DNA of 64,000 nucleotides from Squalus acanthias (Eukaryota). Made by a program: the position numbers and the translations under genes. Each line of letters opens with the position of its first letter. The stretch's first letter is position 1. The stretch is from NCBI GenBank assembly GCA_030390025.1, contig CM059432.1:11718001-11782000 (forward strand). The letters are read 5' to 3'. The notes beneath the pieces were generated by a model. That model had not been told where the DNA came from. It was given only the letters and a program-made list of their open reading frames with translations, and made no database searches. Positions 7,201 through 63,325 of this stretch are shown here, piece after piece.

Positions 7201-7332
7201 GTTACCCTGCCTTCTGCCACCGCAAGCAGTTTCTCCTTATTTCCGTTTCCTATGGTGGTTGTTATCCAGGTGTGCCGGGGCTGCAGGTTTTGGGTTGGTG
7301 GCAACTCGGCAAGTGCGGCTCGTTAGGGTGCA

Positions 7333-7561: not shown

Positions 7562-7744
7562 CTGCCTTCGTTCATACTGTACCGCTGAGAGCCTGTGGGC
7601 TGCTTCTGAGGAAATGTCCAACGTCCCAGTTAGTCAGGCAGTCACCTGTGTCGGCGGTGCCGTTGCGTCTGCTGTCCCAGTTCCCTTCGGGAATAGCAGC
7701 CTCCATTAAACATCAGCCGAAGTGAGGCATGTTTACCTTTACAA

Positions 7745-11998: not shown

Positions 11999-12000
11999 CA

Positions 12001-12270
12001 AATCTCTAACATCTTCCAGTCCTGATGAAAGGTCGCCTTTCGCCAGAACTGGAAGATGTTAGAGATTTCTAAGTTTATAAGCAAGTATAGAGCCAGGGAA
12101 AAGGGGAGGGGTGGGGCAGGAAAAGAACAAAAGGGAAAGGTCTGTGATAGGGTGGAAAGCAGGAGATTAAATGACAAAAGGGATGATGGTGCAAGGCAAA
12201 AGGGGGTGGTAATGGGACAAGTAAAGAAACAAAAGATGGGTCTAGAGGAGGTGTAAATGGCAACAGAAGA
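12001..12270 (-). mobile_element. Penelope (second family) fragment with a short fold-back at 12001-12067
   Basis: aatctctaacatcttccagt...actggaagatgttagagatt inverted pair; body similar to 41790-42000. Confidence 0.7.
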
Positions 12271-12377: not shown

Positions 12378-13680
12378 TTTTTAAATTCGTTTTTATGGGA
12401 TGTGGGCGTCGCTGGCAATGCCAGCATTTATTGCCCATCCCTAATTGCCCTCGAGAAGGTGGTGGTGAGCCGCCTTCTTGAACCGCTGCAGTCCGTGTGG
12501 TGAAGGGAGTCCCACAGTGCTGTTAGGGAGGGAGTTTCAGGATTTTGACCCAGCGACGATGAAGGAACGGCAATATACTTCTAAATCAGGATGATGTGTG
12601 ACTTGGAGGGGAACTTGGAGGTGGTGGTGTTCGCATACGTCTGCTGATCTTGTCCTTCTAGGTGGAAGAGGTCGCGGGTTTGGGAGGTGCTGCCGAAGAA
12701 GCCTTGGCGAGTTGCTGCAGTGCATCTTGTAGATGGTACACACTGCAGCCACGGTACGCCGGTGGTGGAGGGAGTGAATGTTTAAGGTGGTAGAGTGGGT
12801 GCCAATCAAGCGGGCTGCTTTGTCCTGGATGGTGTCGAGCTTCTTGAGTGTTCAAAAATGAGAAGTCGCACAACACCAGGTTATAGTCCAACAATTTTAT
12901 TTAAAATTACAAGCTTTCGGAGCGGCTGCTCCTTCGTCAGGCGAAGCGAAGAAATACAAATCGGCACAGCATATATAGACAGAGAACAATGTCAGACGAC
13001 CACAGCCAATCCCTCCGACTGCCCTCCACCACACCTCGGCAGAGAGACAATCAGGTCAGTCAGGAAGACACCACATCAAAGACACAGCAAAACACAACCA
13101 AGACAACGAGGTGGGGCCACAGGGGGTCCAATGCGCCAGATGCTGCAGCATTTGACACATTATACCCCCCGTGACCCCACCTCACCGCCCCAGCTGCATT
13201 CCGCCATGTCTCCGATACAATGTCTTCCTGACCGACCCGACCGTCCCTCTGCCGAGGTGTGACAAAAGGCAGCCAGAAAGATCAACTGCAGTCGTCTGAC
13301 ACTGCACTCTGCACAGGCATTGTTCTCTGTCTATATATGCTGTGCTGATCCGTATCTCCCCACTTCACCTGACGAAGGAGCAGCCGCTCCGAAAGCCCGC
13401 GATTTCAAACAAAACTGTTGGATCACAACCTGGTGTTGTGCGTTGAGTGTTGTTGGAGCTGCACTCATCCAGGCAAGTGGAGAGTATTCCATCACACTCC
13501 TTACTTGTGCCTTGTAGATGGTAGAAAGGCTTTGGGGAGTCAGGAGGTGAGACACTCGCCGCAGAATACCTAGCCTCTGACCTGCTCTTGTTGCCACAGT
13601 ATTTATGTGGCTGGTCCAGTTAAGTTTCTGGTCAATGGTGACCCCCAGGATGTTGATGGTGGGGGACTCGTTGATGGTAC
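12378..13680 (-). mobile_element. Second LINE family, interrupted by Penelope
   Basis: Same sequence as 22110-22935. Confidence 0.8.
12853..13442. mobile_element. Penelope-like insertion with inverted pLTR arms, nested in a LINE
   Basis: About 135-bp inverted arms of the same family as 56578-57486; 9-bp TSD ttgagtgtt (12844-12852, 13443-13451). Confidence 0.85.
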
Positions 13681-15640
13681 ATATATTTTAAACCCTTTTC
13701 TATTACTCTGTAATAGACTATCTCCGAAGTATGATCAATACATATTGATCTGTTTTGAGTCTGCCCCGGGTAAGCACAAATAAAATTAACTGGGACTATT
13801 TGTCCTGGTTAGCACTATTGACGTGCCACATGCCTCTAATTAGGCTGGAACACATCTTTCAGTCAGCTTGACCCTGGGTTTCGCTGCTTCACTCGTGGGG
13901 AGTGATAATCGTTCTGGTTTAAAAATGTTGGCTATCTTAATGGATGCCATTCATCAAAATTAATCCATTTATTTAGACGTGCTTACAGTCTCTCTAGTTA
14001 GTCCTAGTTGGCGATGAGCAGCACTGAGAAGACAGGGCCTGAAAACATGCGGGGCCTGTGATCCCGCTACCCATGCCAAGGCTGTGCCCGCAGGGAGTCT
14101 CTGCTGCTGCCCCTGCAGAGTGTGCCGCGTCAGGGGGAGATTCTCCTCGGGGGGGAGGTTCTCCGTTCCGCATGCCCCTCCGGGAGCCCGCCTGACTACG
14201 ATTGAATTTCAGGCGTCCCGACTGTCCCAAGCAGGCTAGAACATTGGCCCAGTGGTGCCATCTGAAGGGGGTGCCGGATCCTCACGGTGAGGTCATTTTA
14301 TGGGCACCTTTGTGAGGGAGCTGGTAAAAAGAGGCCTCACTTCTTTCAAGGCAACATTTGGTGTGCTTCTCCCCCCCCGTCCCCTTCTCCCCCCTCCCAC
14401 CAACCCCCCCCCCCCCCCCCGACCCTTCCGGGCCACATTCTCTCTAACGAAGGTTCTACCCTTTACAAGGCCTCATGGATACTGGCAGCGCAGTTCGTGT
14501 TCCAGTGTATCTGGGTCCTGGCCGGTCCTCTGGCCTGCCTCCAGCACTCCCGTTAGCGTTACAACTGAAGTGCGCCAGATTAGTCCTCTTAAACATCAAC
14601 TTGTCATGTAAATAACTTCATGTTAAGAGATAAGATGATCAAAATGTTCATATTATTGAAAGATTATTGTTAAATACTGGGTATGGAAGCAAAATTAAAT
14701 GCGAGGAAAAAAAAATCAAGAAATACTAACTCTTATTCTGTTTTTATTTTAAAAAGGTAGATAAATGGTCCCTATACTCCAGTAATGGAGCATTAGATTC
14801 TTAGCCTTGACTGATATTTGAACCCAGCAAACCACAAATGGTATTTAATTTTATTAGGAAAATAAGACAGGAGAATATCTGAAATAAACACCAGCCTCGA
14901 GCATTCCCAGAGTGCTGCACCCTTGCTCAACCTTGGCTGATTTGTGAACCCAGGTCTGCTGCTCCAGAGCATCAGACTCTCACTCAACCTCCACTGGCCT
15001 TTGAACCCAGAGAGTGTCAGTTAATCTCAATGGGTCAGCCTTTGTGGGCCTTGTTGAGGTGGCTCGGTGACACTTTATCTTCAACGGAAGGAAAGCCAGA
15101 TTCAGTGTAAGTGTGCCTCTTGCTGACTGATAATGGAACCACGATAACAGCATCCGTAGAGACATCTGGTGCTCAGGGACCTCTTCTGATGGAAAATAAC
15201 ATGCTAACGCAGAAGCTAGGATTGTTCTCCTTGGAGAAAAACAGGTTTAGGGGAGATTTAATAGAGGTGTTCAAAATTATGAGGGGTTTTGACAGAGTAG
15301 ATAGGGAGAAACTATTTCGACTGGCAGGAGGGCCAGGAACCAGAGGACACAGATTTAAGATAATTGGCAAAAAAGCCAATTTGGGAGATGAGGAAATCTT
15401 TTTTTGCTCAGCGAGTTGTTATGATCTGGAATGCATTGTCTGAAAGGGTGGTGGAGGCAGATTCAGTAGTAACTTTCAAAAGGGAATTGGAGATAGACTT
15501 GAAAAGGAAACACTTGCAGGGCTATGGGGAAAGAGCAGGAGGAGTGGGACTAATTGGACAGCTCTTTCAAAGAGCCAGCACAGGTACGATGGGCCAAATG
15601 GCCTCCTTCTGTGCTGTATCATACAGAGAAGGAACATAAT

Positions 15641-20689: not shown

Positions 20690-20746
20690 ATAGTGTTTGG
20701 GGTGCTCCAAAAGAACCATCCAACTGACGTCATCGGGGATCTGCTG

Positions 20747-21266
20747 GCACAGCTTCCTTTGGGAAGAAGAGAAGGTTCGGGGCAGCCTCCTTTGGGAAGA
20801 GGAGAACGTTCCGGGCAGCTTCCTTTGGGAAGAGGAGAAGGTTCAGGGCAGCTTCCTTTGGGAAGCGGAGAAGGTTCGGGGCAGCTTCCTTTGGGAAGAG
20901 GAGAAGGTTCAGGGCAGCTTCCTTTGGGAAGTGGAGAAGGTTCGGGGCAGCTTCCTTTGGGAAGAGGAGAAGGGTCAGGGCAGCTTCCTTTGGGAAGAGG
21001 AGAAGCTTCGGGGCAGCTTCCTTTGGGAAGAGGAGAAGGTTCAGGGCAGCTTCCTTCGGGAAGAGGAGAAGGTTCAGGGCAGCTTCCTTCGGGAAGAGGA
21101 GAAGGTTCGGGGCAACTTCCTTCGGGAAGAGGAGAAGGTTCAGGGCAGCTTCCTTTGGGAAGAGGAGAAGCTTCGGGGCAGCTACCTTTGGGAAGAGGAG
21201 AAGGTTCGGGGCAGCTACCTTTGGGAAGAGGAGAAGGTTCGGGGCAGCTTCCTTTGGGAAGAGGAG
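20747..21266. repeat. 33-bp minisatellite, about 16 copies (gcagcttcctttgggaagaggagaaggttcRgg)
   Basis: Directly visible; gives an 11-aa periodicity in three open frames. Confidence 0.95.
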
Positions 21267-22109
21267 CCTCTCCACAAACTCGAGCTCATGCAGACCTCTG
21301 CTGCTCGTCTCCTGACTCGCACCAAGTCCCGTTCACCCATCACCCCTTGTGCTCGCTGCACATTGCCCTGTAAATGGATCTGACAAGGTTCGGCAGCACT
21401 TTTCTCGTGGAAAAGGTTTACCGTAGTCTGCTTTGGAGTTAAATGTTTGAGATCTAAATGTATTTTACAAAACAAAGCAAGACACAAAGTGCAAATAAAA
21501 ACCTCTGCCTTGATCTCCAGTTCAAGGTTACGAGCTATTAAATGCAGCATTGCGTGGAGTGCGTGAGCTTCATACATTATAGTCAGAGTTGCATTGACTT
21601 TGACACTATTAAAAGGAAAATTCATTCTCACACTTACAGCCTTGGGCAGCATGCAGTGTGATGTTTCCCATGATTTTAAAATCTTGGCGGGCAATGAAAA
21701 GATGCATTCATGCTCCATTCTAGCCAAGTTTTATTATTAACCTAATTTTGTTGATATCTGAAATGTTTCTGTGCTCGAGACTAAGTTGGCCATCCGTTTG
21801 GATAAATACTCGGCTCGGATAAATGTAAAACAATGCAGCCTGAAGCGGGAAATCGTATAATCCAGCCTATAGGTGTGAACAAAAATATTTACTCTCCGAT
21901 TTTAACTGGAGGCGAGGGGTTTGGTGGCTAGCCAGAATTTGCCTGTTAAAATAGGGGCACAGCACGAGGCCAGCGAGGATTGGGTGAGTAGGTCGCCTCA
22001 AGGAGTTTAACCCCCAGCTCCCCCCCAACACTCTGTTCTCGTTGGGCATGGGGGGTTAAATCGGGGCTTTATTGATGGTTAGCAATCCTTCCTTTCCTTC
22101 ATGGCCATG

Positions 22110-30089: not shown

Positions 30090-30226
30090 CACAAAAGCAA
30101 AATACTGCGGATGCTGGAAATCTGAAATAAAAACAGAAAATGCTGGAAATACTCAGCAGGTCAGGCAGCATCTGTGAAGAGAAAAACAGAGTTAACATTT
30201 CAGGTCGATGACCCTTCATCAGAACT
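30090..30226 (-). mobile_element. Penelope (second family) 3' fragment
   Basis: Same sequence as 41663-41796; begins at hammerhead stem I. Confidence 0.75.
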
Positions 30227-31390
30227 TAAGTTAGAATAGTGAAATCAATTCCATCAGAGGCTGGTGTCTTCCAGTATCATTGGCAGCCATTGTTCGCTTG
30301 GCATTCACATACGTGCACTTCCAGTATTATTTGTTCGCATTAGGGCTAAGAAGCGAGAATCCTGGTCAAATTTCCCCCTTACCCAGAGACCACTGCAGCT
30401 GACTGCTGTCTCAGCTGAGATCGCATAGCTCAGTGTAGATAGAGGGCTGAGACTTTCTGGTCTGTACAGCCCAGAAACAGAGAGAGTAGATTTTCTTTTT
30501 TTGTGAATGTTGTGCTTACCAAGAAAGAGGGAATGTCGCACTCTCCCCTTCCAGTGTCAGTATTGAGCAATGCCGAGCAACGTTCCCTTTAAGTTGCGTG
30601 GCCGCGCAGCCAGCTCGATGGTGCTCTAACGGCAAAACCCGCGTATGCGCGGTAATTTGAAGGGGCCGCGCACCCAAGAAAAAATGAGCAGGAACATTAG
30701 TGCCCAGTAACAGGTAGCATAAGAACAGAAAAAGGCCATCAGCCCATAATAAGCCCAACAGATTAACTTCAATGCTGTAACATTTTAAGAATATAAGAAC
30801 ATAAGAAATAAGAGCAGGAGTCGGCCATTCGGCCCCTCGAGCCTGCTCCGCCATTCAATAAGATCATGGCTGATCATCGACCTCAACTCCACGTTCCCGC
30901 CCGATCTCCATATCCCTTGATTCTTCACCCAGAGGGTTGTGGGGGTCTGGAAATCACTGCCTGAAAGGGTGGTAGAGGCACAAACCCTAACCACATTTAA
31001 ATGTACTTGGATATGCACTTGGGATGCTGTAACCTGCAGGGCTACAGACCAAGAGCTGGGAAGTGGGGTTAGGCTGGATAGCTCTTTGTTGGCCGGCACG
31101 GACACGATGGGCCGAAATGGCCTCCTTCCGTGCTGTAACTTTCTATGATTCTATGATTCCCCTAGAGTCCAAAAATCTATCTATCTCAGCCTTGAATATA
31201 ATCAAAGACTCAGCATTCACAGCCCTCTGGGGCAGAGAATTCCAAAGATTCACAACCCTCTGAGTGAAGAAATTCCTCCTCATCCCGGTCTTAAATGGCC
31301 TACCCCTTATCCTGAGACTATGCCCCCTAGTTCTAGACTGTGCAGCCAGAGGAAACAACCTCTCAGCATCTACCCTGTCAATCCCCTTCA

Positions 31391-31484
31391 CTTCACCTGA
31401 CGAAGGAGCAGCGCTCCGAAAGCTTGTGATTTCAAATAAAACTGTTGGACTATAACTTGGTGTTGTGCGACTTCTCATTTTTGT
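31391..31484 (+). mobile_element. 94-bp Penelope pLTR mini-insertion in a CR1 fragment
   Basis: 11-bp TSD aatccccttca (31380-31390, 31485-31495). Consists of a hammerhead, AATAAA and the pLTR tail. Confidence 0.85.
31393..31429 (+). ncRNA. Minimal type I hammerhead ribozyme motif
   Basis: TCAC-CTGACGA-A-GGAGC(agc)GCTCC-GAAA-GC-TT-GTGA: stem I TCAC/GTGA, stem II, palindromic stem III AGCT. Confidence 0.75.
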
Positions 31485-31776
31485 AATCCCCTTCAGAATC
31501 TTGTATGTTTCAATGAGATCACCTCTCATTCTTCTAAACTCCAGGCAGTATAGGCCCATTCTACATAATCTTTCATCATAAGACAGCCCTCTCATCCCAA
31601 GAATCAATCTAGTGAACCTTCGTTGCACCGCCTCTAAGGCAAGTAGATAAGTAGTCCAAAACTGTGCACAGGTGTGGTCTCACCAAGGTCCTGTACAATT
31701 GTAGCAAGACTTCCTTCTCTTTTCACCTATTAGTCTTTGTAAGGTGCAGGTTTACTAGCAGGTATTAAACCTGCTA

Positions 31777-32313
31777 GCAAAGAAGGGAGGGAAAAAGAGT
31801 GGCAGGGCTATAGTAATAGGGGATTCGATTGTAAGGGGAATAGATAGGAGTTTCTGTGGTCGCGACCGAGACTCCAGGATGGTAATTTGCCTCCCTGGTG
31901 CAAGGGTCAAGGATGTCTCGGCGCGGGTGCAGAACATTCTGGAGGGGGAGGGGGAACAGCCAGTTGTCGTGATACATGTTGGTACCAACGACGTAGCTAA
32001 AAAAAGGGAAGAGGTCCTACAAGTAGAATTTAGGGAGTTAGGAGCCAAGCTAAAAAGTAGGACCTCGAAGGTAGTAATCTCTGGATTACTACCAGTGCCA
32101 CGTGCTAGTAAGAGTACAGAGAACAGGATAGTTAGGCTAAATACGTGGCTTGAGCAGTGGTGTAAGAGGGAGGGTTTTAAATTTTTGAGGCATTGGGACC
32201 AGTTTTGTGGTAGGTGTGACCTATACAAAAGGGACGGTCTACACCTGTGCAAAGATGGAACTGAGGTTCTCGGGGTAAATTTTGATAAAGCAGTTCGGGA
32301 GCATTTAAACTAG
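31777..32313 (+). CDS. CR1 ORF1 3' part, SGNH/GDSL esterase-like
   Basis: Motifs IVIGDSIVRG, IHVGTND and DGLHL; ends EHLN-stop. The start is approximate because of 5' truncation. Confidence 0.88.
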   Translation, partial: AKKGGKKSGRAIVIGDSIVRGIDRSFCGRDRDSRMVICLPGARVKDVSARVQNILEGEGEQPVVVIHVGTNDVAKKREEVLQVEFRELGAKLKSRTSKVVISGLLPVPRASKSTENRIVRLNTWLEQWCKREGFKFLRHWDQFCGRCDLYKRDGLHLCKDGTEVLGVNFDKAVREHLN

Positions 32314-35255
32314 TATGGCAGGGGGCTAGAAACCCATGTAGTGAAATAGAGGAAAGTGAAAGGCAGACAGAAATAAATGGTAAAAAGGAGAGGAACAAAA
32401 AACAAAGGGCCAAACTAATTCATAAAAAATGTGAGCATAAAAAAAGCCTGAGGGTTTTATACCTTAATGCGAGAAGCATCAGGAACAAGGTAGATGAATT
32501 AGCTGTGGAAATAGAGGTTAATAATTATGATCTAATTGGGATTACGGAAACATGGTTGCAGGGTGAGCAGGGCTGGGAGCTTAACATACAGGGGTATTCA
32601 GTATTTAGGAAGGATCGACAAAAAAGAAAGGGAGGAGGGGTAGCATTGCTGGTAAAAGAGGGGATAAATGCAATTGAAAGGAAGGATATTAACTCAGTTA
32701 ATACAGAATCTATATGGGTGGAGCTAAGAAATAGCGAGGGGCGAAAAACATTAATAGGAGTGGTATATAGGCCTCCAAATAGTAAAATAGAGGTTGGGGA
32801 GGGCATCACGAGGGAAATTAGAGAAGCGTGCAATAAGAGCACAGCTGTCATCATAGGTGACTTTAACTTACATATAGATTGGACTAGCCTAATCAGTAAA
32901 AATAATGAGGAGGAGGAATTCCTTGAGTGTTTAAGGGATGGTTATCTGGATCAATATGTCGAGGAACCAACTCGGGAACAGGCTATATTGGACTGGGTAC
33001 TGTGCAATGAGAAGGGACTAATTAGTAATCTTGTTGTACGGGGACCCTTGGGTCAGAGCGATCATAACATGATCGATTTCTCACTCGAAATGGAGAGCGA
33101 AGAAATTGACTCAGAGACTCAGGTCCTGAATTTAAACAAGGGGAATTATGATGCCATTAGACGGGAACTGAGTAGGTCTGATTGGACAACGTTCCTGGGA
33201 GGACTGGAGGTAGATAAACAATGGCAAGCATTTAAAGATAGAATGACAAAATTGCAAAAATTGTTTATACCAATCTGGCATAAAAGGAAATCTAAAAAGG
33301 TGACTCAACCGTGGATAACAGGGGAAATTAGAGACAGCATAAAATCCAAAGATAGGGCGTATAAAATAGCCAAAAAACGCGCCAGAGCGGAAGATTGGGA
33401 ACAGTTTAAGATAGAGCAAAGGAGGGCAAAGGGCTTAATCAAGAAGGGCAAAATAGCTTACGAAAGCAAGCTGGCGGAAAATATAAAAACTAACTCCAAA
33501 AGCTTTTATAAGTATATCAAGAGGAAAAGACTGGTGAAAACCAAAGTTGGTCCATTGCAGTCAGATACGGGGGAATATATAATGGGAAATAAGGAAATGG
33601 CAGACCAACTAAATGCATACTTTGGGTCAGTCTTTACGAAGGAAGACACAAAAAACCTCCCTGGGATATCGGGAAAAATAGGGACATTGGCAAAGGAGGA
33701 ACTGACGCAAATCAATATCTCTAAGGATATGGTGTTAAGGAAGCTAAAGGGATTGAAGGCGGACAAATCCCCAGGGCCTGATAACATGCATCCTAGGGTA
33801 CTGAAGGAGGTGGCCCTAGAGATAGCGGATGCACTAAGCATGATTTTTCAGAATTCATTAGACTCGGGAACAGTGCCCATGGATTGGAGGGTAGCTAACG
33901 TTACCCCACTATTCAAAAAGGGGGGTAGGGAAAAAGCAGGTAATTACAGACCTGTAAGCCTTACATCAGTTGTGGGCAAAATGCTGGAGTCCATCATTAA
34001 GGATGAAATAGCCGAGCACTTAGCAAATGGGGACAGGATAGGACAGAGTCAACATGGATTTACAAAGGGTAAATCGTGCTTGACTAATCTATTGGAATTT
34101 TTTGAGGGAGTAACTGGTAAAATAGATGGGGGAGAGCCAGTAGATGTGGTGTACCTGGACTTCCAAAAGGCCTTCGATAAGGTCCCACATAAAAGATTAG
34201 CATGGAAAATTGAAGCTCATGGGATAAAGGGGAAAGTATTGACGTGGATAGAGAACTGGCTGTCAGATAGAAAACAGAGAGTTGGAATAAACGGCTCATT
34301 TTCTGAATGGCAGGCAGTAACAAGTGGGGTACCACAGGGATCTGTCCTGGGTCCCCAGCTGTTCACAATTTATATTAATGACCTGGATCAGGGAGTCGAA
34401 TGCAGCATTTCCAAATTTGCAGACGACACTAAACTAGGAGGGGGGGTGGGCTCAGAGGAGGAGACCAGGAAGCTCCAGAGCGATTTGGACAGACTGGGTG
34501 ATTGGGCGGATAAATGGCAGATGCACTATAATGTGGACAAGTGCGAAGTTATCCACCTTGGGTGCAGAAACGGGAGGGCAAATTATTATTTAAATGGCAA
34601 TAAATTGGGAGAGGGGGAAGTACAGAGAGACCTGGGTGTTCTTGTACACCAGTCACTGAAGGCGAGCATGCAGGTGCAACAGGCGGTCAAGAAGGCAAAC
34701 GGTATGCTGGCCTTCATAGCAAAAGGGTTGGAATACAGGAACAGGGATACCTTGCTGCAGCTGTACAGGGCACTGGTGAGACCACACCTCGAGTACTGTG
34801 TACAGTTTTGGTCGCCTCATCTGAGGAAAGATGTTCTTGCCATGGAGGGGGTGCAGCGGCGATTCACCAGGCTGATACCAGGAATGGCGGGATTGACCTA
34901 TGAGGAGAGACTATGTAGTTTAGGGATGTACACACTGGAGTTTAGAAGATTGAGAGGGGACCTCATAGAAGTGTATAAAATTCTGACAGGTCTAGACAGA
35001 TTAGATGCAGAAGGAATGTTTCCCTTGGCGGGTGAGAACAGAACTAGAGGACATAATTTAAGGATAAGGGCTAAACCATTTAGGACAGAAATGAGGGGGA
35101 ATTTCTTCACTCAGAGAGTGGTGAACCTGTGGAACTCATTGCCACAGAGGGCAGTGTACGCCAGCTCATTAAATATATTTAAGAGGGAATTAGATATATT
35201 TCTACAGGCAAAAGGGGTTAAGGGTTACGGAGAGAAGGCGGGGACGGGATACTGA
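32289..35255 (+). CDS. CR1 ORF2, APE endonuclease plus reverse transcriptase
   Basis: Frame open from 32289. Motifs LYLNARSIRNK, ITETW, GDFN, SDH, YLDFQKAFDKV, GVPQGSVLGP, FADD; no stops. Confidence 0.95.
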   Translation, partial: SSSGAFKLVWQGARNPCSEIEESERQTEINGKKERNKKQRAKLIHKKCEHKKSLRVLYLNARSIRNKVDELAVEIEVNNYDLIGITETWLQGEQGWELNIQGYSVFRKDRQKRKGGGVALLVKEGINAIERKDINSVNTESIWVELRNSEGRKTLIGVVYRPPNSKIEVGEGITREIREACNKSTAVIIGDFNLHIDWTSLISKNNEEEEFLECLRDGYLDQYVEEPTREQAILDWVLCNEKGLISNLVVRGPLGQSDHNMIDFSLEMESEEIDSETQVLNLNKGNYDAIRRELSRSDWTTFLGGLEVDKQWQAFKDRMTKLQKLFIPIWHKRKSKKVTQPWITGEIRDSIKSKDRAYKIAKKRARAEDWEQFKIEQRRAKGLIKKGKIAYESKLAENIKTNSKSFYKYIKRKRLVKTKVGPLQSDTGEYIMGNKEMADQLNAYFGSVFTKEDTKNLPGISGKIGTLAKEELTQINISKDMVLRKLKGLKADKSPGPDNMHPRVLKEVALEIADALSMIFQNSLDSGTVPMDWRVANVTPLFKKGGREKAGNYRPVSLTSVVGKMLESIIKDEIAEHLANGDRIGQSQHGFTKGKSCLTNLLEFFEGVTGKIDGGEPVDVVYLDFQKAFDKVPHKRLAWKIEAHGIKGKVLTWIENWLSDRKQRVGINGSFSEWQAVTSGVPQGSVLGPQLFTIYINDLDQGVECSISKFADDTKLGGGVGSEEETRKLQSDLDRLGDWADKWQMHYNVDKCEVIHLGCRNGRANYYLNGNKLGEGEVQRDLGVLVHQSLKASMQVQQAVKKANGMLAFIAKGLEYRNRDTLLQLYRALVRPHLEYCVQFWSPHLRKDVLAMEGVQRRFTRLIPGMAGLTYEERLCSLGMYTLEFRRLRGDLIEVYKILTGLDRLDAEGMFPLAGENRTRGHNLRIRAKPFRTEMRGNFFTQRVVNLWNSLPQRAVYASSLNIFKRELDIFLQAKGVKGYGEKAGTGY

Positions 35256-41584: not shown

Positions 41585-41662
41585 GTAAAGGAAAACCTAC
41601 TGCTTATTCTCTGTTGTTCTTCTACTTACTCATTTATTTGTGTGTGCGTGTGTATGTAAACA

Positions 41663-42288
41663 AAAGCAAACTACTGCGGATGCTGGAAATCCGAAATAAA
41701 AACAGAAAATGCTGGGAAACACTCAGCGGGTCAGGCAGCATCTGTGGAGAGAGAAACAGAGTTAACGTTTCAGGTCGATGACCCTTCGTCAGAACTGGAA
41801 AAAGTTAGAGATCCAACAGATTTTAAGCAAGTGTAGGGGCAGGGAAAGGGAGGAAGGGGCGGAAAGGACAAAAGGGAAGGTCTGTGATAGGATGGGAGGC
41901 AGGAGAGATTAAATGACAAAAGATACGATGGTACGAGGCAAAATGGTAATGGGACAAGTAAAGAAACAAAAGATGCATCCAGAGGATCTGTAAATGGGAA
42001 TATTCACCAACAGCTGCCGTCAGATCATAACCTCTGCCCCCATTTTTTCGGAGGGCATCATTCCTTTTGTCATTTAATCTCTCCTGCCTTCCAGCCTATC
42101 ACAGACCTTCCCTTTTGTTCTTTCCTCCCCTCCTCCCCCGTTTCCCTGCCTCTGCACCTGCTTAAAATCTGTTACGTCTCTAACTTTTTCCAGTTCTGAC
42201 GAAAGGTCATCGACCTGAAACGTTAACTCAGTTTCTCTCTCCACAGATGCTGCCTGACCTGCTGAGTGTTTCCAGCATTTTCTGTATA
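41663..42288. mobile_element. Second Penelope-like family, inverted pLTR pair
   Basis: Imperfect inverted arms; TSD tatgtaaaca (41653-41662, 42289-42298); hammerhead motif in both arms. Confidence 0.82.
42192..42228 (+). ncRNA. Minimal type I hammerhead ribozyme motif
   Basis: AGTT-CTGACGA-A-AGGTC(atc)GACCT-GAAA-CG-TT-AACT: stem I AGTT/AACT, palindromic stem III ACGT. Confidence 0.75.
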
Positions 42289-45275
42289 TATGTAAACATG
42301 TGTGTTTGTGTGTGCTGGGGGGGGGGGGGGGGGGTTCTTTCCTGTACCTACACCCTGTAATAGATCAGCAATGGAGATATCCACAGAGTAAGACAAGCCA
42401 TGATGCATTTAAGGGGAAAAAGAAAGAAAGACTTGCATTTCTATAGCGCCTTTCATGACCACCGGACATCTCAAAGTGCTTTACAGTCAATTAAGTACTT
42501 TTGAAGTGCAGTCACTGTTGTAATGTGGGAAACGCAGCAGCCAATTTGCGCACAGCAAGGTCCCACAAACAGCAATGTGATAATGACCAGATAATCTGTT
42601 TTTGTTATGTTGGTTGAGGGATAAATATTGGTCAGAACACCGGGGATAACTCCCCTACTCGTCTTCGAAATAGTGGCCATGGGACCTTTTACGTCCACCT
42701 GAGAGAGCAGACGGGGCCTCGGTTTAACGTCTCATCCGAAAGACGGCACCTCCGACAGTGCAGCACTCCCTCAGCACTGCACTGGGAGTGTCAGCCTAGC
42801 TTTATGTGCTCAAGTCCCTGGAGTGGGACTGTGAACCCACAACCTTCTGACTCAGAGGCAAGTGTGCTACCCACTGAGCCACAGCTGACACTAGATAAGT
42901 ACCTGAGGGAGAAAGGATGAGAAGACTACGTTGATTGGGTGAGATGAAGTAGAGTGGGAGGAGGCTCGTGTGGAGCATAAACACTGCCATAGACTATTTG
43001 GGCCCAATGGTCTGTTTCTGTGCTGCAAATTCTATGTAATTCCTTAAATACATAATGTCTGACCAATGTGCATTAGACACTGTGGTATCTACTTTTCCAG
43101 TTGATGGAATTCCAGGTAAAGTTGATGTATATTCAGGACCCGAGAAGCTGCAGCAACTCAACATTTAATTTCTGTGGCAAGTCTGATGTTTGGAGTCATC
43201 TCAATCTCAATATAGTAATTGTATAAAAACTGCTAAACTGGTAGCTTATGTTTAGAATAATTGGTGCATTTCTGAACAGTTTACAAGCAGGCTTAGCCTT
43301 TGAGTCCCTATATGCCTCTTGAGTCTTTGCAATAATATTTAACGCCCCCATCTTCCTTGCTTTTTCCCTATTGGTCATTTCTTTTTGCCCCACCATTGGC
43401 GGCCCATTGATCTGTACCCCAGCGAGGAATCTACAGCACGAAAGAAATGTAGAATGGGCGGGCAGAGCAAGAGTTGTGATTTGCATGACAGTAAAACATG
43501 TTTTCTCGTGAGCATCCCTGATTGCAATCACTCAACCATTGGTGGCCGTGCCTTCAGCTGTCAAGGCCCTAAGCTCTGGAATTCCCTCCCTAAACCTCTC
43601 CGCCTCTCTACCTCTCTTTTCTCCTTTAAGACGCTCCTTAAAACCTACCTCTCCTCTCCTAATATCTCCTTAAGTGGCTCGATGTCAAATTGCGTCTGAT
43701 AACGCTCCGTTAAAGGTGCTATATAAATGCAAGTTGTTGTTGTTGATGTTTATAGCCTTCAAACTTATTGTCAAATGTTTATCTAACTCCCTCTTAAACA
43801 AGCACTGTGATTATATTGGCAATCATAGTAGCTTGCGGTCGGGCAATATGGTAGCATGGATAGAGGATTGGTTAACGGACAGAAAACAGAGAGTAGGGAT
43901 AAACGGATCTTTTTCAGGTTGGCAGGCTGTAACTGGTGGGGTGCTGCAAGGATCAGTGTTGGGGCCTCCGCTATTTACAATCTATATTAATGACCTAGAT
44001 GAACAGTTCTGGTCTCCTTATCTAAGGAAGGATATACTTGCCTTGGAGGCGGTGCAACGAAGGTTCACTAGACTGATTCTTGGGATGAGAGGGCTGTCCT
44101 ATGAAGAGAGAGTGTGTAGAATGGGCCTATACTCCCTGGAGTTTAGAAGAATGAGAGGTGATCTCATTGAAACGTACAGCAAAGTTATGGCAATGGGGCA
44201 GGAGCAGCTCCAAGGCAATTCCTGGCATAATAGAGAAGCTACCAAAAGATCGTCTGTGAAGGATGAGCAGAATTTATTTGCGCAAAGCAGAAGCTTGAAA
44301 ATGAGTGATATTGTTGACACATCCACTGGGTCCTCTGCCACAGGCCTTAGCTTTATCAGATGACACTTTATGGACGACAAACAAGACAGTCCTTCCAATT
44401 AGAGGAATGTCTATTCCATAGAGTCACTTACAGAGCCCACTGCCTGTATAATCTGGGGCATGGGTCCTGAAAGGATGCCACACAGGATTTTCAGATCTAG
44501 CAATCATTGAGCTATGCTTTGCTCTTAATGAAGATTGAAGTGGAAGCGACTGATGTTGTACGTGATGTCCACAGAGAAGAATCGGTCAAGGACACAGACT
44601 CGGGGATCAGAAGTGGGCGCATAATCTAAGAACGTTGTCCCAAGTCGAATATCTCAAAGCTCAACAATGGAGGAAGCTTCTTGCAACAAGGAAAATCCCA
44701 TCAAATCCATAACAAAATGTTGCAAACATTCAGCAGGTCAGGCGTGACCCCCTTTGTCAACAGGGCCATGCCTGAAATGTTAACTTGTCTGTTTTTCTCT
44801 GCAGAGGCTGCCTGAGTGTTTCCAGCATTTTGTTAAGGATTTGATTCCAACAACTGCAGTTTTTTCTTTTGCTTTTTGCCCGTCAAATCCTACTTGGCAT
44901 TGGAAGGACAGAGGTTTTGTTTGTTACCTGTGGAGATGCCGATTACAGGATTATATTCAGAGGCACTGAGGAAATGGAGTAGCTAAAATACACACAGGAT
45001 GCAGATATTATAATCCACTCCTCTGCAGCGCATACATCCTGATTTGGCTGTGCAGCAGAAATATTTGTGTCTGATGATGCAGCCGTCTTCTTCCTATGTC
45101 TTTTGGTAGGAAGAACGAGGAGAGGCAATATAAACTAAAGGGTACAATCCTAAAGGGGGTGCATGAACAGTGAGATCTGGGGGTGTATGTGCACAAATCG
45201 TTGAAGGTGGCAGGGCAGGTTGAGAAAGCAGTTAAAAAAGCATACGGGATCCTGGGCTTTATAAATAGTGACATA

Positions 45276-46168
45276 GGGGGAGAAATTCAGTATCGCCCCA
45301 TTTGGGGCGCAATTATCGGCCGGGCGCGAAGATTAGCGCCTGGCGCTAATTATCGCCACCGACTGCAAACTTGACTTTTATCGCCCCTGCAGGTGATTGG
45401 AGCGCTAAATCAGGCGCTTCACACCTGTCTTAAGGCGCAAAGGCCGAGGAGCGAGGCGCTACCTCAGAGCGCTGGCGAAGCTCATGTGATGTCAGTCAGC
45501 AATGGAACACACACACAATGGCATGGGCCAGTTCTTAAAGGGGAGGGTTGATCTTGCTTTCCATCCACATCCTGCTCATTGCAGCCTTGAATCTCGGCCT
45601 GGAGAGACCTGCACATCAAATCTGCTGGAAAGAACAATGGAGAGTACCAGGGAAAGAGCTCAGAGTGCAGCCTCCACAGCCTCTTCTAAATCGATACAAG
45701 GAAGGGCAAATCAAAATGAACCTGCAAAGTGCTGCTCAGTACCCAAAACTCCTTCACACAGCGTTGAATCTCTCCAGAAGTCTCTCTCCCTCTCTCTCAG
45801 AATGCGTGGTTCAAAAATGGCACCAACAATAAAAGACAGGCAGCGGTCGCCTTTAAATAGCGTTCCCTCAGTCACTTCATGACTGCAAAACGCTCCCCTC
45901 AACCTGTCGTTGCTAGCGTCAGGTGGTAAGGCAGGGGGCGCCACTCAATATCCGCTCCGGGGCGATACCGGGGCGTTGCGCACTTGACTGACGTCATGAT
46001 CTGCCGGCGCAGGAGATCGTGGCGGTAGTGTTTAGTGTCGCCGCAAAATGTCTAGTTAATTTCGCGAGCGGCGCAAATATCGCCGCACCCGGTCGCTAGA
46101 TGATTTGCGCCCCATTAGCGCCCTCTTAAGGCGCTAACGGCAGGCGCAACCAACTGAATTTTTCCCCC
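45276..46168 (-). mobile_element. MITE family A copy
   Basis: Reverse-oriented near-identical copy of 9277-10168; TSD ATA; splits a CR1 RT fragment. Confidence 0.85.
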
Positions 46169-47310
46169 ATAGAGTACAAAAGCAAGGAAGTTATGATGAA
46201 CCTTTATAAAACACTGGTTCGGCCCCAACTGGAGTATTGTGTTCAATTCTGGGCACCGCACTTTAGGAAGGATGTGAAGGCCTTAGAGAGGGTCCAGGAA
46301 AGGTTTACGAGAATGATTCCAGGGATGAGGGACTTCAGTTACTTGGATAGACTGGAGAAGCTGGGGTTGTTCTCCTTAGAGCAGAGAAGATTGAGAGGAG
46401 ATTTGATAGAGGTGTTCAAAATCATGAGGGGTCTGGCCAGAGTAGATAGAGAGAAACTGTTCCCATTGGCGGAAGGGTCGAGAACCAGAGGACACAGATT
46501 TAAGGTGATTGGCAAAAGAACCAAAGGCGACATGAGGAAAAACCTTTTTACGCAGCAAGTGGTTAGGGTCTGGAATGCACTGCCTGAAAGGGTGGGTGGA
46601 GGCAGATTTAATCGTGGCTTTCAAAAGGGAATTGGATAAGTACCTGAAAGAAAAATATTTGCAGGGCTATGGGGAAAGGGCGGGGGAGTGGGACTAGCTG
46701 AAGTGCTCTTGCAGAGAGCCGGCATGGGCTCGACGGGCCGAATGGCCGCCTTCCGTGCTGTAACCATTCTATGATTCTATGTCTGGCTGTCAGTGCTAAG
46801 GTTCATTCTCAATTGTATCAGAAAAGTGGGACAGAGACTTGTACAAAAATGGTTGCTGACACAAGAGGGGAAGGTATTTGCACATCACTAGTTGAAGAAA
46901 GTACTAAAATCACTAAAAATAGCGACGCTGGTTAATAAGGCCATAAAAAAGCAAACAAAGCACTGGGTTTCATTTCTAGAGGGATAGAATTGAAAAGCAG
47001 AGAAGTTATGTTAAAGAACCTTGGTTAGACCACACTTGGAGGACTGTGCACAGTTCTGGTCTCCATATTATAAAAAGGATATAGAGGCACTGGAGAAGGT
47101 GCAAAAAAAATTTACTAGAATGATACCAGAACTGAGAGGCTATACCTATCAGGAAAGATTGAACAGGCTGGGGCTTTTTTCTCTAGAAAAGAGAAGGTTG
47201 AGGGGTGACCTGATAGAGGTCTTTAAGATTATGAAAGGGTTTTATAGAGTAGGTGTAGAGAAGATGTTTCCACTTGTGAGAGACACCAGAACTAGGGGCC
47301 ATAAATATAA

Positions 47311-47419
47311 AATAACAACAGAAAATGCTGGAAATACTCAGCAGGTCAGGCAGCATCGTGGAGGGTGAAACAGAGTTAACGTTTCAGGTCGATGACCCTT
47401 CATCAGAACTGGAAAAGGT
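47311..47419 (-). mobile_element. 109-bp Penelope (second family) mini-insertion in CR1
   Basis: 14-bp TSD ggccataaatataa (47297-47310, 47420-47433); hammerhead on the minus strand. Confidence 0.82.
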
Positions 47420-49098: not shown

Positions 49099-49757
49099 GG
49101 GGGAAAAATTGGGTTGCTTTGCGCCTCCCGTTAGCGCCTTCTTAGGGCGTTAACGGGGCGCAAAGCAACTAGTGCCCGGGCGCGGTGCTGCCAATGCCTC
49201 CCGCGAAATTCAGCGGGAGGTTAGCGGCGGTGCTAACCGTTAGCGCCCCGCGGTGCTGCACCGCCGGCGATGATGTCATCGCCGTGCGTAGCAGCCCGCT
49301 CGTGCCCCGGCCGCGATCTTCGGTAACGCTATGTCCGATGGGGTCGGGGGGGGGGGGGGCCTACCTGCGGCCAGGGCGGCGCTATTTAAAGGCGAGGTGC
49401 CAGGCGGCTATTTTTGTTGCTGGCCGCCTGCCAGCACCTGCCTCCACTCCCGTCCCCGGCCTCCTTACCCGCTCCCCACCCCGCGGAGTGCTGGGCTCTT
49501 TTGCCGGCACTCCCGATCCCCGGGGGCCCAACTGGGCCCCGGGTTGCGCTGCGCAAGGCCCCTCCCCATTAAGAAGGGGAGGAAGGTCTGCAATACCACG
49601 GTGCGGCGTAGCGCCACGATATTCCCTCGGAGCGCCCCAAGAGGGAGGCGGGGCGCTTCCAGTAGCGCCCCGCTTCCCTCTTGGGGCGCAACCACTCAAT
49701 TTCGGTCGCAGGGGCGCTAATTTTTCTGGGGTTAAAAGTAGACTCAATTTTTAGCCC
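49099..49757 (+). mobile_element. GC-rich MITE family B
   Basis: Same termini; flanks TAA/AAA. Confidence 0.78.
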
Positions 49758-56475: not shown

Positions 56476-56577
56476 TGATCCTATGTTTCGTTTCCAATCT
56501 TCCATTGCTCGGTGTCTCATTTTGGAGCTACCTCAAGCCCAAAGAATGTAGCTTCCCTCTGCCAAGGATGATAGTGA

Positions 56578-57486
56578 TGCGGAAATGCCGGTGTTGGACT
56601 GGGGTGGACAAAAATGAGAAGTCGCACAACACCAGGTTATAGTCCAACAGTTTTATTTAAAATTACGAGCTTTCGGAGCGCTGCTCCTTCGTCAGGTACA
56701 GGTACAGTGAGGGAATATAAATCGATTACACAGTATATATACACAGAGAGCAATGTGTCTGCAGAGATACAATCTGTTAGGAAGGCATTACATCAAAGAC
56801 ACCTCAGAGTACAGCTAAGACAATGAGGTGGGTCACAGGGGGTCCAACGTGTCAAATGTTGCCGTCTGCAGTTGAGCTTTTAACTTTTTTTTTGTTTTTT
56901 TGTGGGTTTTTTTGTGTTTTTTTTTTAAACTGGAAAGACAGACAACGATGTCGAGTCACGTTCTGTAGCGTGACATGAACCCGAGATCCCTGTTGAGGCC
57001 GTCCTCATGGGTGTGGAACTTGGCTATCAGTTTCTGCTCGATGATTTTGCGCAAAATCATCGAGCAGAAACTGATAGCCAAGTTCCACACCCATGAGGAC
57101 GGCCTCAACAGGGATCTCGGGTTCATGTCACGCTACAGAACGTGACTCGACATCGTTGTCTGTCTTTCCAGTTTAAAAAAAAAACACAAAAAAACCCACA
57201 AAAAAACAAAAAAAAAGTTAAAAGCTCAACTGCAGACGGCAACATTTGACACGTTGGACCCCCTGTGACCCACCTCATTGTCTTAGCTGTACTCTGAGGT
57301 GTCTTTGATGTAATGCCTTCCTAACAGATTGTATCTCTGCAGACACATTGCTCTCTGTGTATATATACTGTGTAATCGATTTATATTCCCTCACTGTACC
57401 TGTACCTGAAGAAGGAGCAGCGCTCCGAAAGCTCGTAATTTTAAATAAAACTGTTAGACTATAACCTGGTGTTGTGCGACTTCTCA
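56578..57486. mobile_element. Penelope-like element as a head-to-head palindrome of two 3' ends
   Basis: Arms 56615-57050 and 57051-57486 with no spacer. Encodes RKIIEQKLIAKFHTHEDGLNRDLGFMSRYRT* (GIY-YIG C-terminus) at 57050-57145. Hammerhead in each arm; direct repeat caaggatgatagtga at 56563-56577 and 57485-57499. Confidence 0.9.
57403..57437 (+). ncRNA. Minimal type I hammerhead ribozyme motif (mirror copy on the minus strand at 56664-56698)
   Basis: TAC-CTGAAGA-A-GGAGC(agc)GCTCC-GAAA-GC-TC-GTA. Confidence 0.72.
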
Positions 57487-57715
57487 AGGATGATAGTGAC
57501 CACTTTAGTCATTTGGCAGGGAGCAGGTACCAGGAAGTCCACGCGAGCAGCATGACGAGCCCCTCAACTCACCATAAAATCTGTGAATGAATGGCCACCA
57601 TTCACGCATCGTACCTCATTGAAAATAACAGTGCTCTGCAGTTTGGGGAACCCATCATCGCGGTGATACACTTTCGTTTCTTTGTTTGAGCCGTGATATT
57701 TTATCTGTTTATCAG

Positions 57716-57806
57716 GAGGACAGAATTAAGATGCTGAGGAGCAGTTCCAGCGGATCAACTCTTAAGGTGGAAGACAGCTCCCCAGAGACTCCGAATGGCA
57801 AGAAAA
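57716..57806 (+). CDS. SPIRE1: SPIRE1 exon, Ser-rich linker (EDRIKMLRSSSSGSTLKVEDSSPETPNGKK)
   Basis: atcag| acceptor, |gtaagc donor, 91 nt, phase 0-1. Bridges the phases of both neighbouring exons exactly; only weak sequence similarity to mammals. Confidence 0.8.
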
Positions 57807-59660: not shown

Positions 59661-59978
59661 GTAAGTATGTAGGAAAGTATTTGTTCCCTATATCTTTCTT
59701 GCTCTTTAACTGTGGAAAGGGATCCTAAGTGATCGACATCTGTTTCCTCTGTGCCCGAGGTGCAACACCTGCCCAGCAGAGTGCATCTAGTGATCAGACC
59801 AAGAGATCAGTGCATTGCCCAATTGAGGAAAATGAGACCAAATGACAGATTTTGACAGGCCTTGAGCTCCCATTGTTCTGGTTAGGACTCATGCCTTCAG
59901 CCCTAGTATAAGGGTTCATAGATGCCGTGCTAGATTACGGGTGGCGTATCCATTTTGACGCTGCTGTTGTATCCTCAG

Positions 59979-60121
59979 CTCCTCCAATGTTCCTGCCCAT
60001 CTCCTCGACTCCACAGCCTGAACGAAGGAAGCCACCTCAGAGGCGGCACTCCATCGAGAAGGAAACACCAACCAACGTGCGCCAGTTCCTTCCTCCGTCG
60101 CGACAGAGTTCCAAGTCTCTG
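59979..60121 (+). CDS. SPIRE1: SPIRE1 exon ([47 protein letters not shown])
   Basis: ctcag| acceptor, |gtaagt donor, 143 nt, phase 1-0. Near-identical to the recalled SPIRE1 sequence. Confidence 0.97.
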
Positions 60122-61784: not shown

Positions 61785-63325
61785 AACATAAGAACTAAGA
61801 GCAAGTATATCCCTCCTTAAATAAGGAAACCAAAACTGTACGCAGTACTCCAGGTGTGGTCTCACAATTGTAGCAAGACTTCCTTACTATTGTACTCCAA
61901 CCCCCTTGCAATAAAGGCCAACATGCCATTTGCCTTCCTAATTGCTTGCTGTACCTGCATGCTAACTTTCTGTGGTTCTTGTACTGGGACACCTAAATCT
62001 CTCTGAACACCAACATTTAATGGTTTCTCACCATTTAATAGTTTCTCACCATTTAAAAAATATTCTGTTTTCCTATTCTTCCTACCAAAGTGAATAACCT
62101 CACATTTCCCCACATTATACTCCATCTGCCACCTTATTGCCCACTCACTTAACCTGTCTATGTCCCTTTGCAGACTCTTTGGGGGAGAAATTCAGTATCG
62201 CCCCATTTGGGGCGCAATTATCGGCCGGGCGCAAAGATTAGCGCCTGGCGCTAATTATCGCCACCGACTGCAAACTTGACTTTTATCGCCCCTGGAGGTG
62301 ATTGGAGCGCTAAATCAGGCGCTTCACACCTGTCTTAAGGCGCAAAGGCCGAGGAGCGAGGCGCTAACTCAGAGCGCTGGCGAAGCTCATGTGATGTCAG
62401 TCAGCAATGGAACACACACACAATGGCACGGGCCAGTTCTTAAAGGGGAGGGTTGATCTTGCTTTCCATCCACATCCTGCTCATTGCTGCCTTGAATCTC
62501 GGCCCGGAGAGACCTGTACATCAAACCTTCAGGAAAGAACAATGGAGAGGCCCAGGGAAAGAGCTCAGAGTGCAGCCCCCACAATCTCTTCTAAATCGAT
62601 ACAAGGAAGGGCAAATCAAAATGAACCTGCAAAGTGCTGCTCAGTACCCAAAACTCCTTCACACAGAGTTGAATCTCTCCGGAAGTCTCTCTCTCTCTCT
62701 CTCTCTCTCAGACTGCGTGGTTCAAAGATGTCACCAACAATAAAAGGCAGGAAGCGGTCGCCTTTAAATAGCGCTCCCCCAGTCCCTTCCTGACTGCAAA
62801 ACGCTCCCCTCAACCTGTCGTTGCTAGCGGCAGGCGGTAAGGCAGGGGGCGCCACTCAATATCCACTCCGGGGCGCTACCGGGGCGTTGCGCACTCGACT
62901 GACGTCACGGTCTGCCGGCGCAGGAGATCGTGGCGGTAGTATTTAGCGCCGCCGCAAAATGTCTAGTTAATTTCTCGAGCGGCGTAAACATTGCCGCACC
63001 CGGGCGCTAGTTGCTTTGCGCCCCATTATCGCCCTCTAAAGGCGCTAACGGGAGGCGCATCCAACTGAATTTTTCCCCCTTTGTGTCCTCCTCACAGCTT
63101 ACTTTCCTACCTAGCTTTGTATCATCAGCAAACTTGGATACATTACACTCGGTCCCTTCATCTAAGTCATTAATATAGATTGTAAATAGCTGAGGCCCAA
63201 GCACTGATCCTTGTGACACCCCACTAGTTATGGCCTGCCAACCTGAAAATGACCTGTTTATCCCTACTCTCTGTTTTCTGTCTGTTAACCAATCCTCTAT
63301 CCATGCTAATACATCACCCCCAACC
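61785..63325 (-). mobile_element. CR1 fragment split by a MITE
   Basis: QGSVLGPQLF..FADD at 63007-63219 continues at 61862-62180. Confidence 0.88.
62181..63079 (-). mobile_element. MITE family A copy
   Basis: Same TIRs; TSD TTT; splits a CR1 RT fragment. Confidence 0.85.

What the first reader, a model, noticed from the sequence alone, without database searches (positions are those of the whole stretch)
56563..57499. 872-bp spacerless palindrome from a very young Penelope insertion, about 230 bp upstream of an exon
Two 436-bp arms meet with no loop at 57050/57051. I count only two differences between them, and even the homopolymer lengths match. Each arm has the GIY-YIG C-terminal coding end, a hammerhead and a polyA signal. 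Only the left arm has the 37-bp 3' extension, and a 13-15-bp target duplication flanks the unit. Inverted pLTRs are known for Penelope elements, but a zero-spacer fold-back suggests self-primed snap-back of the cDNA (inference). It would form a cruciform-prone site in DNA and long dsRNA in the SPIRE1 pre-mRNA, a possible ADAR or Dicer substrate beside a splice acceptor.
Basis: partly seen in the sequence, partly recalled or inferred. Interest (0 to 1): 0.7.

Follow-up and report, generated by a model that had tools for sequence, protein, structure and literature searches.

The report
Penelope palindrome with RNA-edited sister copy
The mirror-image insert in this shark gene is a fresh but ordinary Penelope-type jumping-gene insertion, but a sister insert nearby carries the scars of an RNA-editing enzyme on both halves, showing that such mirror-image copies can be written into the genome from a folded-back RNA.

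Summary
In detail: 436-bp arms, no spacer, 2 mismatches, a one-sided 37-bp tail and a 13-15-bp target duplication, in an intron of a shark SPIRE1-like gene. The layout is the published, canonical one for endonuclease-bearing Penelope-like elements, and self-priming at such junctions was proposed in 2013 (PMC3846280). So the flagged feature itself is ordinary.

The new point is a second spacerless palindrome of the same family at 12853-13442. Of its 63 arm-to-arm transitions, 59 are A-to-G on the same genomic strand in both arms. Editing follows ADAR's 5'-neighbour order (U>A>C>G), and the flanks show no such skew. This copy was therefore reverse-transcribed from an ADAR-edited fold-back RNA. 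cDNA snap-back or twin priming alone would not leave that pattern.

Open question: did Penelope's own enzyme copy that RNA, or did the palindrome ride inside its host LINE? The LINE's sense strand is also the edited strand. The flagged copy is unedited, so snap-back remains possible for it. No reads or genome could be examined, and an effect on splicing has no support.

The parts
56563..56577 (.). Target-site duplication, left copy (15 bp at most)
56578..56614 (-). 37-bp Penelope 'tail', left arm only; predicted to pair with the stretch before it
   Evidence: the complementary pair is also seen in L001
56615..57050 (-). Left (tail-bearing) arm: 3' end of a Penelope-like element
57051..57486 (+). 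Right (tailless) arm; both mismatches depart here from the state in the other four aligned arms or copies
57050..57145 (+). Last 31 codons and stop of the Penelope-like ORF, endonuclease end (mirror copy 56956-57051 on minus); the junction falls inside the first codon
57403..57437 (+). Minimal type I hammerhead-like motif: 3-bp helix I, bulged A, 5-bp helix II, 4-nt palindromic helix III (mirror copy 56664-56698 on minus)
   Evidence: pattern scan and pairing check; activity not tested
57485..57499 (.). Target-site duplication, right copy (first 2 bp shared with the arm end)
57716..57806 (+). SPIRE1-like coding exon (91 nt) downstream of the insert
12853..13145 (-). Sister palindrome, tail-side arm (partial tail): 23 A-to-G changes in element sense, none from the hammerhead core to the end
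13146..13442 (+). Sister palindrome, tailless arm: 36 T-to-C changes in element sense (A-to-G on the minus strand); zero spacer at 13145/13146
12844..12852 (.). 9-bp target duplication of the sister insertion (other copy 13443-13451); the empty site is intact in two paralogous LINE copies
12385..13690 (-). 5'-truncated LINE (ORF2 C-terminal end) that hosts the sister palindrome; its sense strand is the edited strand
31380..31495 (+). Short non-inverted copy of the same family with an 11-bp target duplication, used as an outgroup

Best explanation
Identity (about 95% sure): the 872-bp unit is one very recent, non-autonomous, 5'-truncated insertion of an endonuclease-bearing Penelope-like retroelement in the canonical head-to-head layout, lying in a SPIRE1-like intron with no shown function. 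Mechanism (about 50%): such palindromes are copied by Penelope's own reverse transcriptase from a fold-back RNA, ordered antisense arm, turn, sense arm, tail. The endonuclease nicks the target, the enzyme primes at the tail, copies the sense arm, rounds the turn and copies the antisense arm. Shown: the layout; and that the sister copy passed through a double-stranded RNA edited on one continuous strand. Inferred: that Penelope's enzyme did the copying, and that the flagged, unedited copy arose the same way and escaped editing. Unresolved: whether the fold-back RNA is a transcript of an earlier palindromic copy or a sense/antisense duplex crossed by a template switch.
For: Sister palindrome: 59 of 63 arm-to-arm transitions are A-to-G on the minus strand in both arms (binomial p 1e-13), with 1 transversion. 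The young copy as outgroup gives the A or T state at 34 of 44 such columns, against the G or C state at 8 (control rates). Edited fraction by 5' neighbour: U 20 of 34, A 17 of 43, C 14 of 44, G 7 of 35 (trend p 7e-4); upstream-G depletion is the shared ADAR mark in PMC5625713, which also reports massive editing of Penelope RNA in lizard (passages). Flanks show no skew. The edited strand carries the tail at its 3' end and is opposite to the SPIRE1 pre-mRNA. The tail-side arm is unedited from the hammerhead core outward (0 of 20 A) while the facing arm is edited there (8 of 21; Fisher p 0.003), which points to the part where a Penelope enzyme starts copying (PMC11167929, parts 1-2 read). One of only two same-family palindromes in 64 kb is edited, which is easier to expect if the route is common (inference).
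Against: The flagged copy has no clear ADAR mark, although a 436-bp perfect RNA duplex should be a strong substrate. The host LINE's sense strand is also the edited strand, so hitch-hiking in a LINE transcript fits too. Host and insert ages cannot be told apart (9 of 440 against 5-6 of 558 unconfounded changes, p 0.17-0.29). The facing arm also has a run of 17 unedited A, so long unedited runs occur. An 18-bp indel between the sister's arms suggests the palindrome may have aged as DNA before it was transcribed. The model needs an extra step to stop the second arm near the tail boundary. No 3'-neighbour preference was seen. The evidence is one edited copy.
Confidence: 0.5

Rival explanations
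1. DNA-level copy-back plus hitch-hiking. The palindrome forms during insertion when the cDNA folds back or the enzyme switches onto its own cDNA. The sister copy was edited later, as a passenger in a transcript of its host LINE that was then retrotransposed.
For: The flagged arms are unedited, share all homopolymer lengths and are cut at the same base. The host LINE's sense strand is the edited strand. It keeps the sister's canonical ends and 9-bp duplication without extra steps. An unchecked note from this scan describes such a passenger case in another genome (e1-7810917).
Against: It does not explain why only the tail-side 3' end is unedited (0 of 13 A after the predicted hammerhead cut, 5.9 expected), nor two bases there that match the young subfamily. 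It needs a disrupted LINE to be remobilised in trans, presumably rare. A true snap-back should leave a loop; both palindromes have none. The host's mutation load is about twice the insert's, though not significantly.
Confidence: 0.35
2. Twin priming: both target strands prime on sense RNA, one at the tail and one at the tailless start site, and the two cDNAs join at a 2-nt microhomology.
For: Two adjacent reverse-transcription start sites and extension of both target strands were shown in vitro for the anole element (PMC11167929). A second-family inverted pair at about 41650-42290 has unequal arms that are 90% alike and a spacer.
Against: Two independent cDNAs are unlikely to stop at the same base in 2 of 2 palindromes. 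In the sister copy the tailless arm has T-to-C, not A-to-G, in element sense, so it came through antisense RNA.
Confidence: 0.1
3. Assembly or sequencing artefact from fold-back reads.
For: Perfect palindromes are a known artefact class (own knowledge). No reads and no second assembly were examined.
Against: Target duplication, one-sided tail, 2 arm mismatches, different flanks, and a second palindrome with its own duplication whose empty site is intact (62 of 62 bases) in two paralogous LINE copies. An error acting alike on reads of both strands cannot give same-strand A-to-G in both arms (inference).
Confidence: 0.03

Closest known systems
Canonical endonuclease-bearing Penelope-like insertions with an adjacent inverted 5'-truncated copy (Pen2a_Av, Pen2_Av, Pen3a of Adineta vaga, PMC3846280; general scheme in PMC8557442)
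   Same: Head-to-head arms, palindrome at the junction, 30-40-bp tail at one end only, short target duplication (8-10 bp there), hammerhead in the terminal repeat.
   Different: Here both arms are cut at the same base inside the endonuclease coding end, so the whole insert is one palindrome. The sister copy records ADAR editing, which the passages read do not mention.
Antisense self-priming model for Penelope inverted junctions (PMC3846280, Discussion)
   Same: Holds that an antisense RNA takes part in making the head-to-head junction; the sister's tailless arm carries antisense-strand edits.
   Different: Simple self-priming on an edited antisense RNA would copy the same edits into both arms. 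Here each arm has its own edits, so both strands were RNA when edited (or, less likely, an RNA:DNA hybrid).
ADAR A-to-G hypermutation recorded in retroviral DNA: avian retroviruses, including an inverted repeat with nearly 50% of A changed (as reviewed in PMC12925331), and BLV proviruses (PMC8025556)
   Same: One-strand A-to-G clusters confined to a double-stranded region and fixed by reverse transcription.
   Different: Here it is a Penelope-like element in a shark assembly, presumably germ-line, and the hairpin is the element itself.
Hyper-edited Penelope RNA in lizard and palindromic Harbinger RNA in frog (PMC5625713)
   Same: Self-folding repeats are strong ADAR substrates; G is depleted upstream of edited A.
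   Different: Those are RNA-level edits; here they are written into DNA.
Minimal hammerheads of Penelope-like elements (PMC4209133)
   Same: Short helix I, bulged base before helix II, small palindromic helix III suited to dimers.
   Different: The two motifs of a palindrome lie on opposite strands, so one transcript holds only one, buried in duplex.

Membership tests
Endonuclease-bearing Penelope-like element | ORF with RT and C-terminal GIY-YIG endonuclease | tested here: inconclusive
   Only the last 31 codons are in the window. They match the end of P0129, 881 aa, RVT_1 E 4e-10; relative P0125 hits GIY-YIG at E 0.0017, below the curated cut-off; the remnant itself hits no Pfam family. Origin is supported; this copy is non-autonomous.
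Endonuclease-bearing Penelope-like element | Inverted 5'-truncated copy directly at the 5' end | tested here: met
Endonuclease-bearing Penelope-like element | 30-40-bp tail at one end only | tested here: met
   37 bp, left arm only; feature as in PMC8557442
Endonuclease-bearing Penelope-like element | Short target-site duplication | tested here: met
   13-15 bp; 9 and 11 bp in two sister copies
Endonuclease-bearing Penelope-like element | Minimal type I hammerhead motif in the terminal repeat | tested here: met
   Core, helix II and palindromic helix III by pattern in 5 of 5 arms or copies, helix III altered in the edited tailless arm; no Rfam match
Endonuclease-bearing Penelope-like element | Ribozyme cleavage activity | not testable with these tools
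   needs a bench assay
Neptune versus Penelope/Poseidon clade | Place in the RT tree | not tested
   No reference sequences were at hand and no tree was built
ADAR hyper-editing footprint (sister copy) | A-to-G dominates on one strand | tested here: met
   59 of 63 transitions, 1 transversion
ADAR hyper-editing footprint (sister copy) | Direction is A-to-G, not C-to-T | tested here: met
   Outgroup has the A or T state at 34 of 44 columns, the G or C state at 8, other at 2
ADAR hyper-editing footprint (sister copy) | G depleted 5' of edited A | tested here: met
   7 of 35 edited after G against 20 of 34 after U; Fisher p 0.028, trend p 7e-4
ADAR hyper-editing footprint (sister copy) | Preference at the 3' neighbour | tested here: inconclusive
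   No G excess (13 of 36, p 1.0); PMC5625713 says this preference varies by lineage
ADAR hyper-editing footprint (sister copy) | Confined to double-stranded RNA | tested here: met
   No T-to-C excess in the flanks against 12 paralogous alignments and 1 of 14 private host changes
ADAR hyper-editing footprint (flagged copy) | A-to-G cluster in the arms | tested here: not met
   2 differences only, both departing from the family state in the right arm
Non-LTR retrozyme | Tandem head-to-tail hammerhead repeats | tested here: not met
   Arrangement is inverted, single unit; definition from 10.64898/2026.07.22.740005, passages

The most novel reading that the evidence does not exclude
Penelope's inverted second arm is copied from antisense RNA in a fold-back or sense/antisense duplex, so palindromic copies are a mobile RNA form of the element. 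ADAR edits fixed in genomic copies record which strand templated each arm. In the sister copy the enzyme may have started on an unedited RNA from a different subfamily and changed template at the hammerhead cut site, which would give the ribozyme a role in transposition.
Probability: 0.3. Interest if true: 0.8.

Novelty: new variant of a known kind. Interest (0 to 1): 0.52.

Why it matters
How Penelope-like elements make their inverted copies is an open question: PMC8557442 calls the cycle's features still undefined, and PMC3846280 could not decide between sense and antisense templates. ADAR marks fixed in DNA are a natural strand label. Shared edits in both arms mean DNA copy-back; A-to-G in both arms in element sense means twin priming; same-strand edits mean a fold-back RNA. 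Counting these classes in any shark or lizard genome would test the mechanism without bench work. The flagged insertion alone matters little.

Tried and rejected
No whole genome is held, so copy numbers, shared junctions and a source locus could not be examined. No sequencing reads were examined, so artefact, polymorphism, RNA editing and exon inclusion remain open.

Searches for family copies: an exact 24-base motif found 0 stretches in metagenome and 0 in viral contigs. Protein-guided scans confirmed 1 of 148 candidates in metagenomes, 0 of 71 in viral contigs and 3 of 24 in genome contigs. None showed an inverted Penelope pair.

Rfam: no match at gathering score; 11 weak hits are hairpin look-alikes at the centre.

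Rejected for the sister's pattern: (1) CpG decay. Changed sites look CpG-rich if read as C-to-T (28 of 59 against 25 of 112, p 0.001), which counts against my reading; but CpG decay is strand-symmetric, the outgroup mostly has A or T, and edits at CA and at facing TA steps mimic CpG. (2) One-strand C deamination, rejected on outgroup polarity. (3) Editing of the SPIRE1 pre-mRNA: wrong strand. (4) TpA-directed DNA hypermutation (unchecked notes): 39 of 59 changes do not follow U.

The second-family pair at about 41650-42290 shows no skew (8 against 8). The first Fisher test printed used wrong numbers and was redone. Dating host against insert was inconclusive.

Ten literature searches listed no paper on A-to-G edited genomic Penelope copies. 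The library lacks most subscription papers and no supplements were read, so absence from print is not shown.

Full report
OBSERVATION. The sequence is as described. Two 436-bp arms meet at 57050/57051 with no spacer and differ at 2 of 436 positions, with no indels. The left arm alone continues for 37 bp. A direct repeat of up to 15 bp flanks the unit, 2 bp of it shared with the right arm's end. Both mismatches are departures of the right arm from the state in the other four aligned arms or copies. One falls on the variable position of the hammerhead core (own knowledge of hammerhead numbering).

HOST. A 48-aa exon at 59978-60121 found 1553 relatives; the best named ones are SPIRE1-like proteins of cartilaginous fishes, up to 100% identical. 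I mapped 13 of the 120 listed proteins to the window. Exon 57716-57806 was matched by 11 of 13, all from cartilaginous fishes; the turtle and gar proteins did not match it at the threshold. The insert lies in the intron of about 16 kb before this exon and ends 217 nt from the acceptor.

ELEMENT. The 30-aa remnant found 12 relatives among 1.84 billion representatives. One, P0129 (881 aa), has an RT domain and ends in this peptide; another has a weak GIY-YIG hit. P0129 matches the window only at the two arms, so no autonomous copy is here. A marine-metagenome contig, L001, has the same order of coding end, hammerhead motif and tail-like stretch. The motif has a 3-bp helix I, a bulged A, a 5-bp helix II and a 4-nt palindromic helix III, like variants in PMC4209133 (passages). 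Rfam does not detect it. The codon cut by the junction aligns to Arg in 6 of 8 relatives and Cys in 2 of 8, so the centre probably sits on a natural 2-nt self-complementary step (inference).

KNOWN ARCHITECTURE. PMC8557442 (passages) describes an inverted 5'-truncated copy directly at the 5' end and a 30-40-bp tail at one end as typical. PMC3846280 (passages and Discussion) reports palindromes at inverted junctions, 8-10-bp duplications, and proposes self-priming on an antisense template. PMC11167929 (parts 1-2 of 4) shows two reverse-transcription start sites bounding the tail. The flagged unit is therefore a standard product, and the self-priming idea is in print.

THE SISTER COPY. A search of the window with the left arm found three more stretches of the family. 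The stretch 12853-13442 is a second head-to-head pair with zero spacer at 13145/13146 and a 9-bp duplication. Its empty site is intact, 62 of 62 bases, in two paralogous LINE copies. The arms are only 72% alike, but the differences are one-sided. In 23 columns the tail-side arm has G for A and in 36 the other arm has C for T, against 4 reverse transitions and 1 transversion (another aligner gives 5 and 1). Both classes are A-to-G on the minus strand.

DIRECTION AND CONTEXT. The young copy has the A or T state at 34 of 44 informative columns and the G or C state at 8. At invariant C columns it has T in 2 of 49, and at invariant G columns A in 4 of 43, so A-to-G is the main direction. About 37% of A were changed (59 of about 160). 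The rate falls with the 5' neighbour: U 20 of 34, A 17 of 43, C 14 of 44, G 7 of 35 (trend p 7e-4). PMC5625713 (passages) gives upstream-G depletion as the common ADAR mark, reports hyper-editing in elephant shark brain, and names Penelope as massively edited in lizard RNA. Flanks show no skew. Against this reading: no 3' preference, and an apparent CpG excess if the changes are read as C-to-T, which edits at CA and facing TA steps can mimic. The edited strand is not the SPIRE1 pre-mRNA strand. Apart from edits the arms differ by about 2% and one 18-bp indel, so this copy is also fairly young.

WHAT THIS SHOWS. The sister copy was written into DNA from a molecule in which both arms were paired RNA on one continuous sense of strand. 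cDNA snap-back would put the same edits in both arms. Twin priming on sense RNA would give A-to-G in element sense in both arms. Neither is seen. Two routes remain. Penelope's enzyme may have copied a fold-back RNA from its tail. Or the palindrome formed earlier by any route and was carried in a transcript of its host LINE, whose sense strand is the minus strand; that rival was prompted by an unchecked note. Host and insert ages do not decide it.

A LEAD. The tail-side arm is edited at 23 of 44 A inside but 0 of 20 from the hammerhead core outward, while the facing arm is edited at 8 of 21 there. After the predicted cut site it is 0 of 13, with 5.9 expected (p 3e-4 if sites were independent, which they are not). 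At 3 and 8 bases past the cut the tail-side arm matches the young subfamily while the other arm matches the copy at 31.4 kb; upstream, both arms share their own subfamily's features. This fits a start on a separate, unedited RNA and a template change near the cut site. It rests on two bases, one of which could be an edit, and the facing arm has its own run of 17 unedited A. Gene conversion is an alternative.

THE FLAGGED COPY. It is unedited, so it cannot be assigned a route. Identical tract lengths and the shared truncation point favour one source molecule over two. A transcript through it would fold into a near-perfect duplex, so editing in SPIRE1 pre-mRNA is plausible. Nothing supports an effect on the exon or an evolved role.

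PRINT. ADAR marks fixed by reverse transcription are known for retroviruses (PMC12925331 and PMC8025556, passages). PMC4982230 (passages) says a role of ADAR editing in Alu evolution was not yet determined in 2016. PMC4866542 (passages) screens for APOBEC G-to-A marks and its main text does not mention ADAR. PMC7761336 and 10.64898/2026.07.22.740005 were seen as passages. Ten searches listed nothing on edited genomic Penelope copies; the library is partial and supplements were not read. Hajjar and Linial 1995 was seen only as cited in the review.

VERDICT. The flagged palindrome is real and ordinary in kind. The edited sister turns an open mechanistic question into a countable one, but it is a single copy with a live rival. 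Interest 0.52.

Noticed in passing
window 12853-13442: Second spacerless palindrome of the same family with same-strand A-to-G changes in both arms; taken into the main argument.
   Followed up: yes
window about 41650-42290: Head-to-head pair of a second hammerhead-bearing, Penelope-like family, starting about 70 nt after the SPIRE1-like exon ending near 41584. Arms 90% alike over 237 bp, unequal inner parts, tail-like extension on the left only, possible 10-bp duplication (41653-41662 and 42289-42298), no substitution skew.
   Followed up: partly
window about 12000-12263: Second-family copy on the minus strand that stops inside its hammerhead motif and abuts a short inverted piece, a tail-to-tail fold-back of about 35 bp per arm.
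   Followed up: no
window 31380-31495: About 95-bp non-inverted copy of the first family with an 11-bp duplication; it ends 6-7 nt into the tail, within one base of where the sister's tail-side arm ends.
   Followed up: partly
window 2759-2886, 11112-11164, 30091-30226, 47310-47419: Further short copies of the second hammerhead-bearing family.
   Followed up: no
window 9340-10175, 45276-46100, 62174-63017: Three GC-rich repeat copies 93-97% alike; family not identified. Shorter GC-rich near-palindromes lie at 11862-11937, 20529-20582 and 49632-49689.
   Followed up: no
window 32289-35255: 988-codon open frame with endonuclease and RT domains of a LINE on the plus strand.
   Followed up: no
window 7285-7620 and 20651-21365: Tandem arrays with 16-bp and 33-bp periods.
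   Followed up: no
L001 520-1005 and L002 1-1304: Penelope-like sequence inside a marine-metagenome contig and in a contig of a gill-symbiont genome assembly; probably animal DNA or a chimeric contig.
   Followed up: partly
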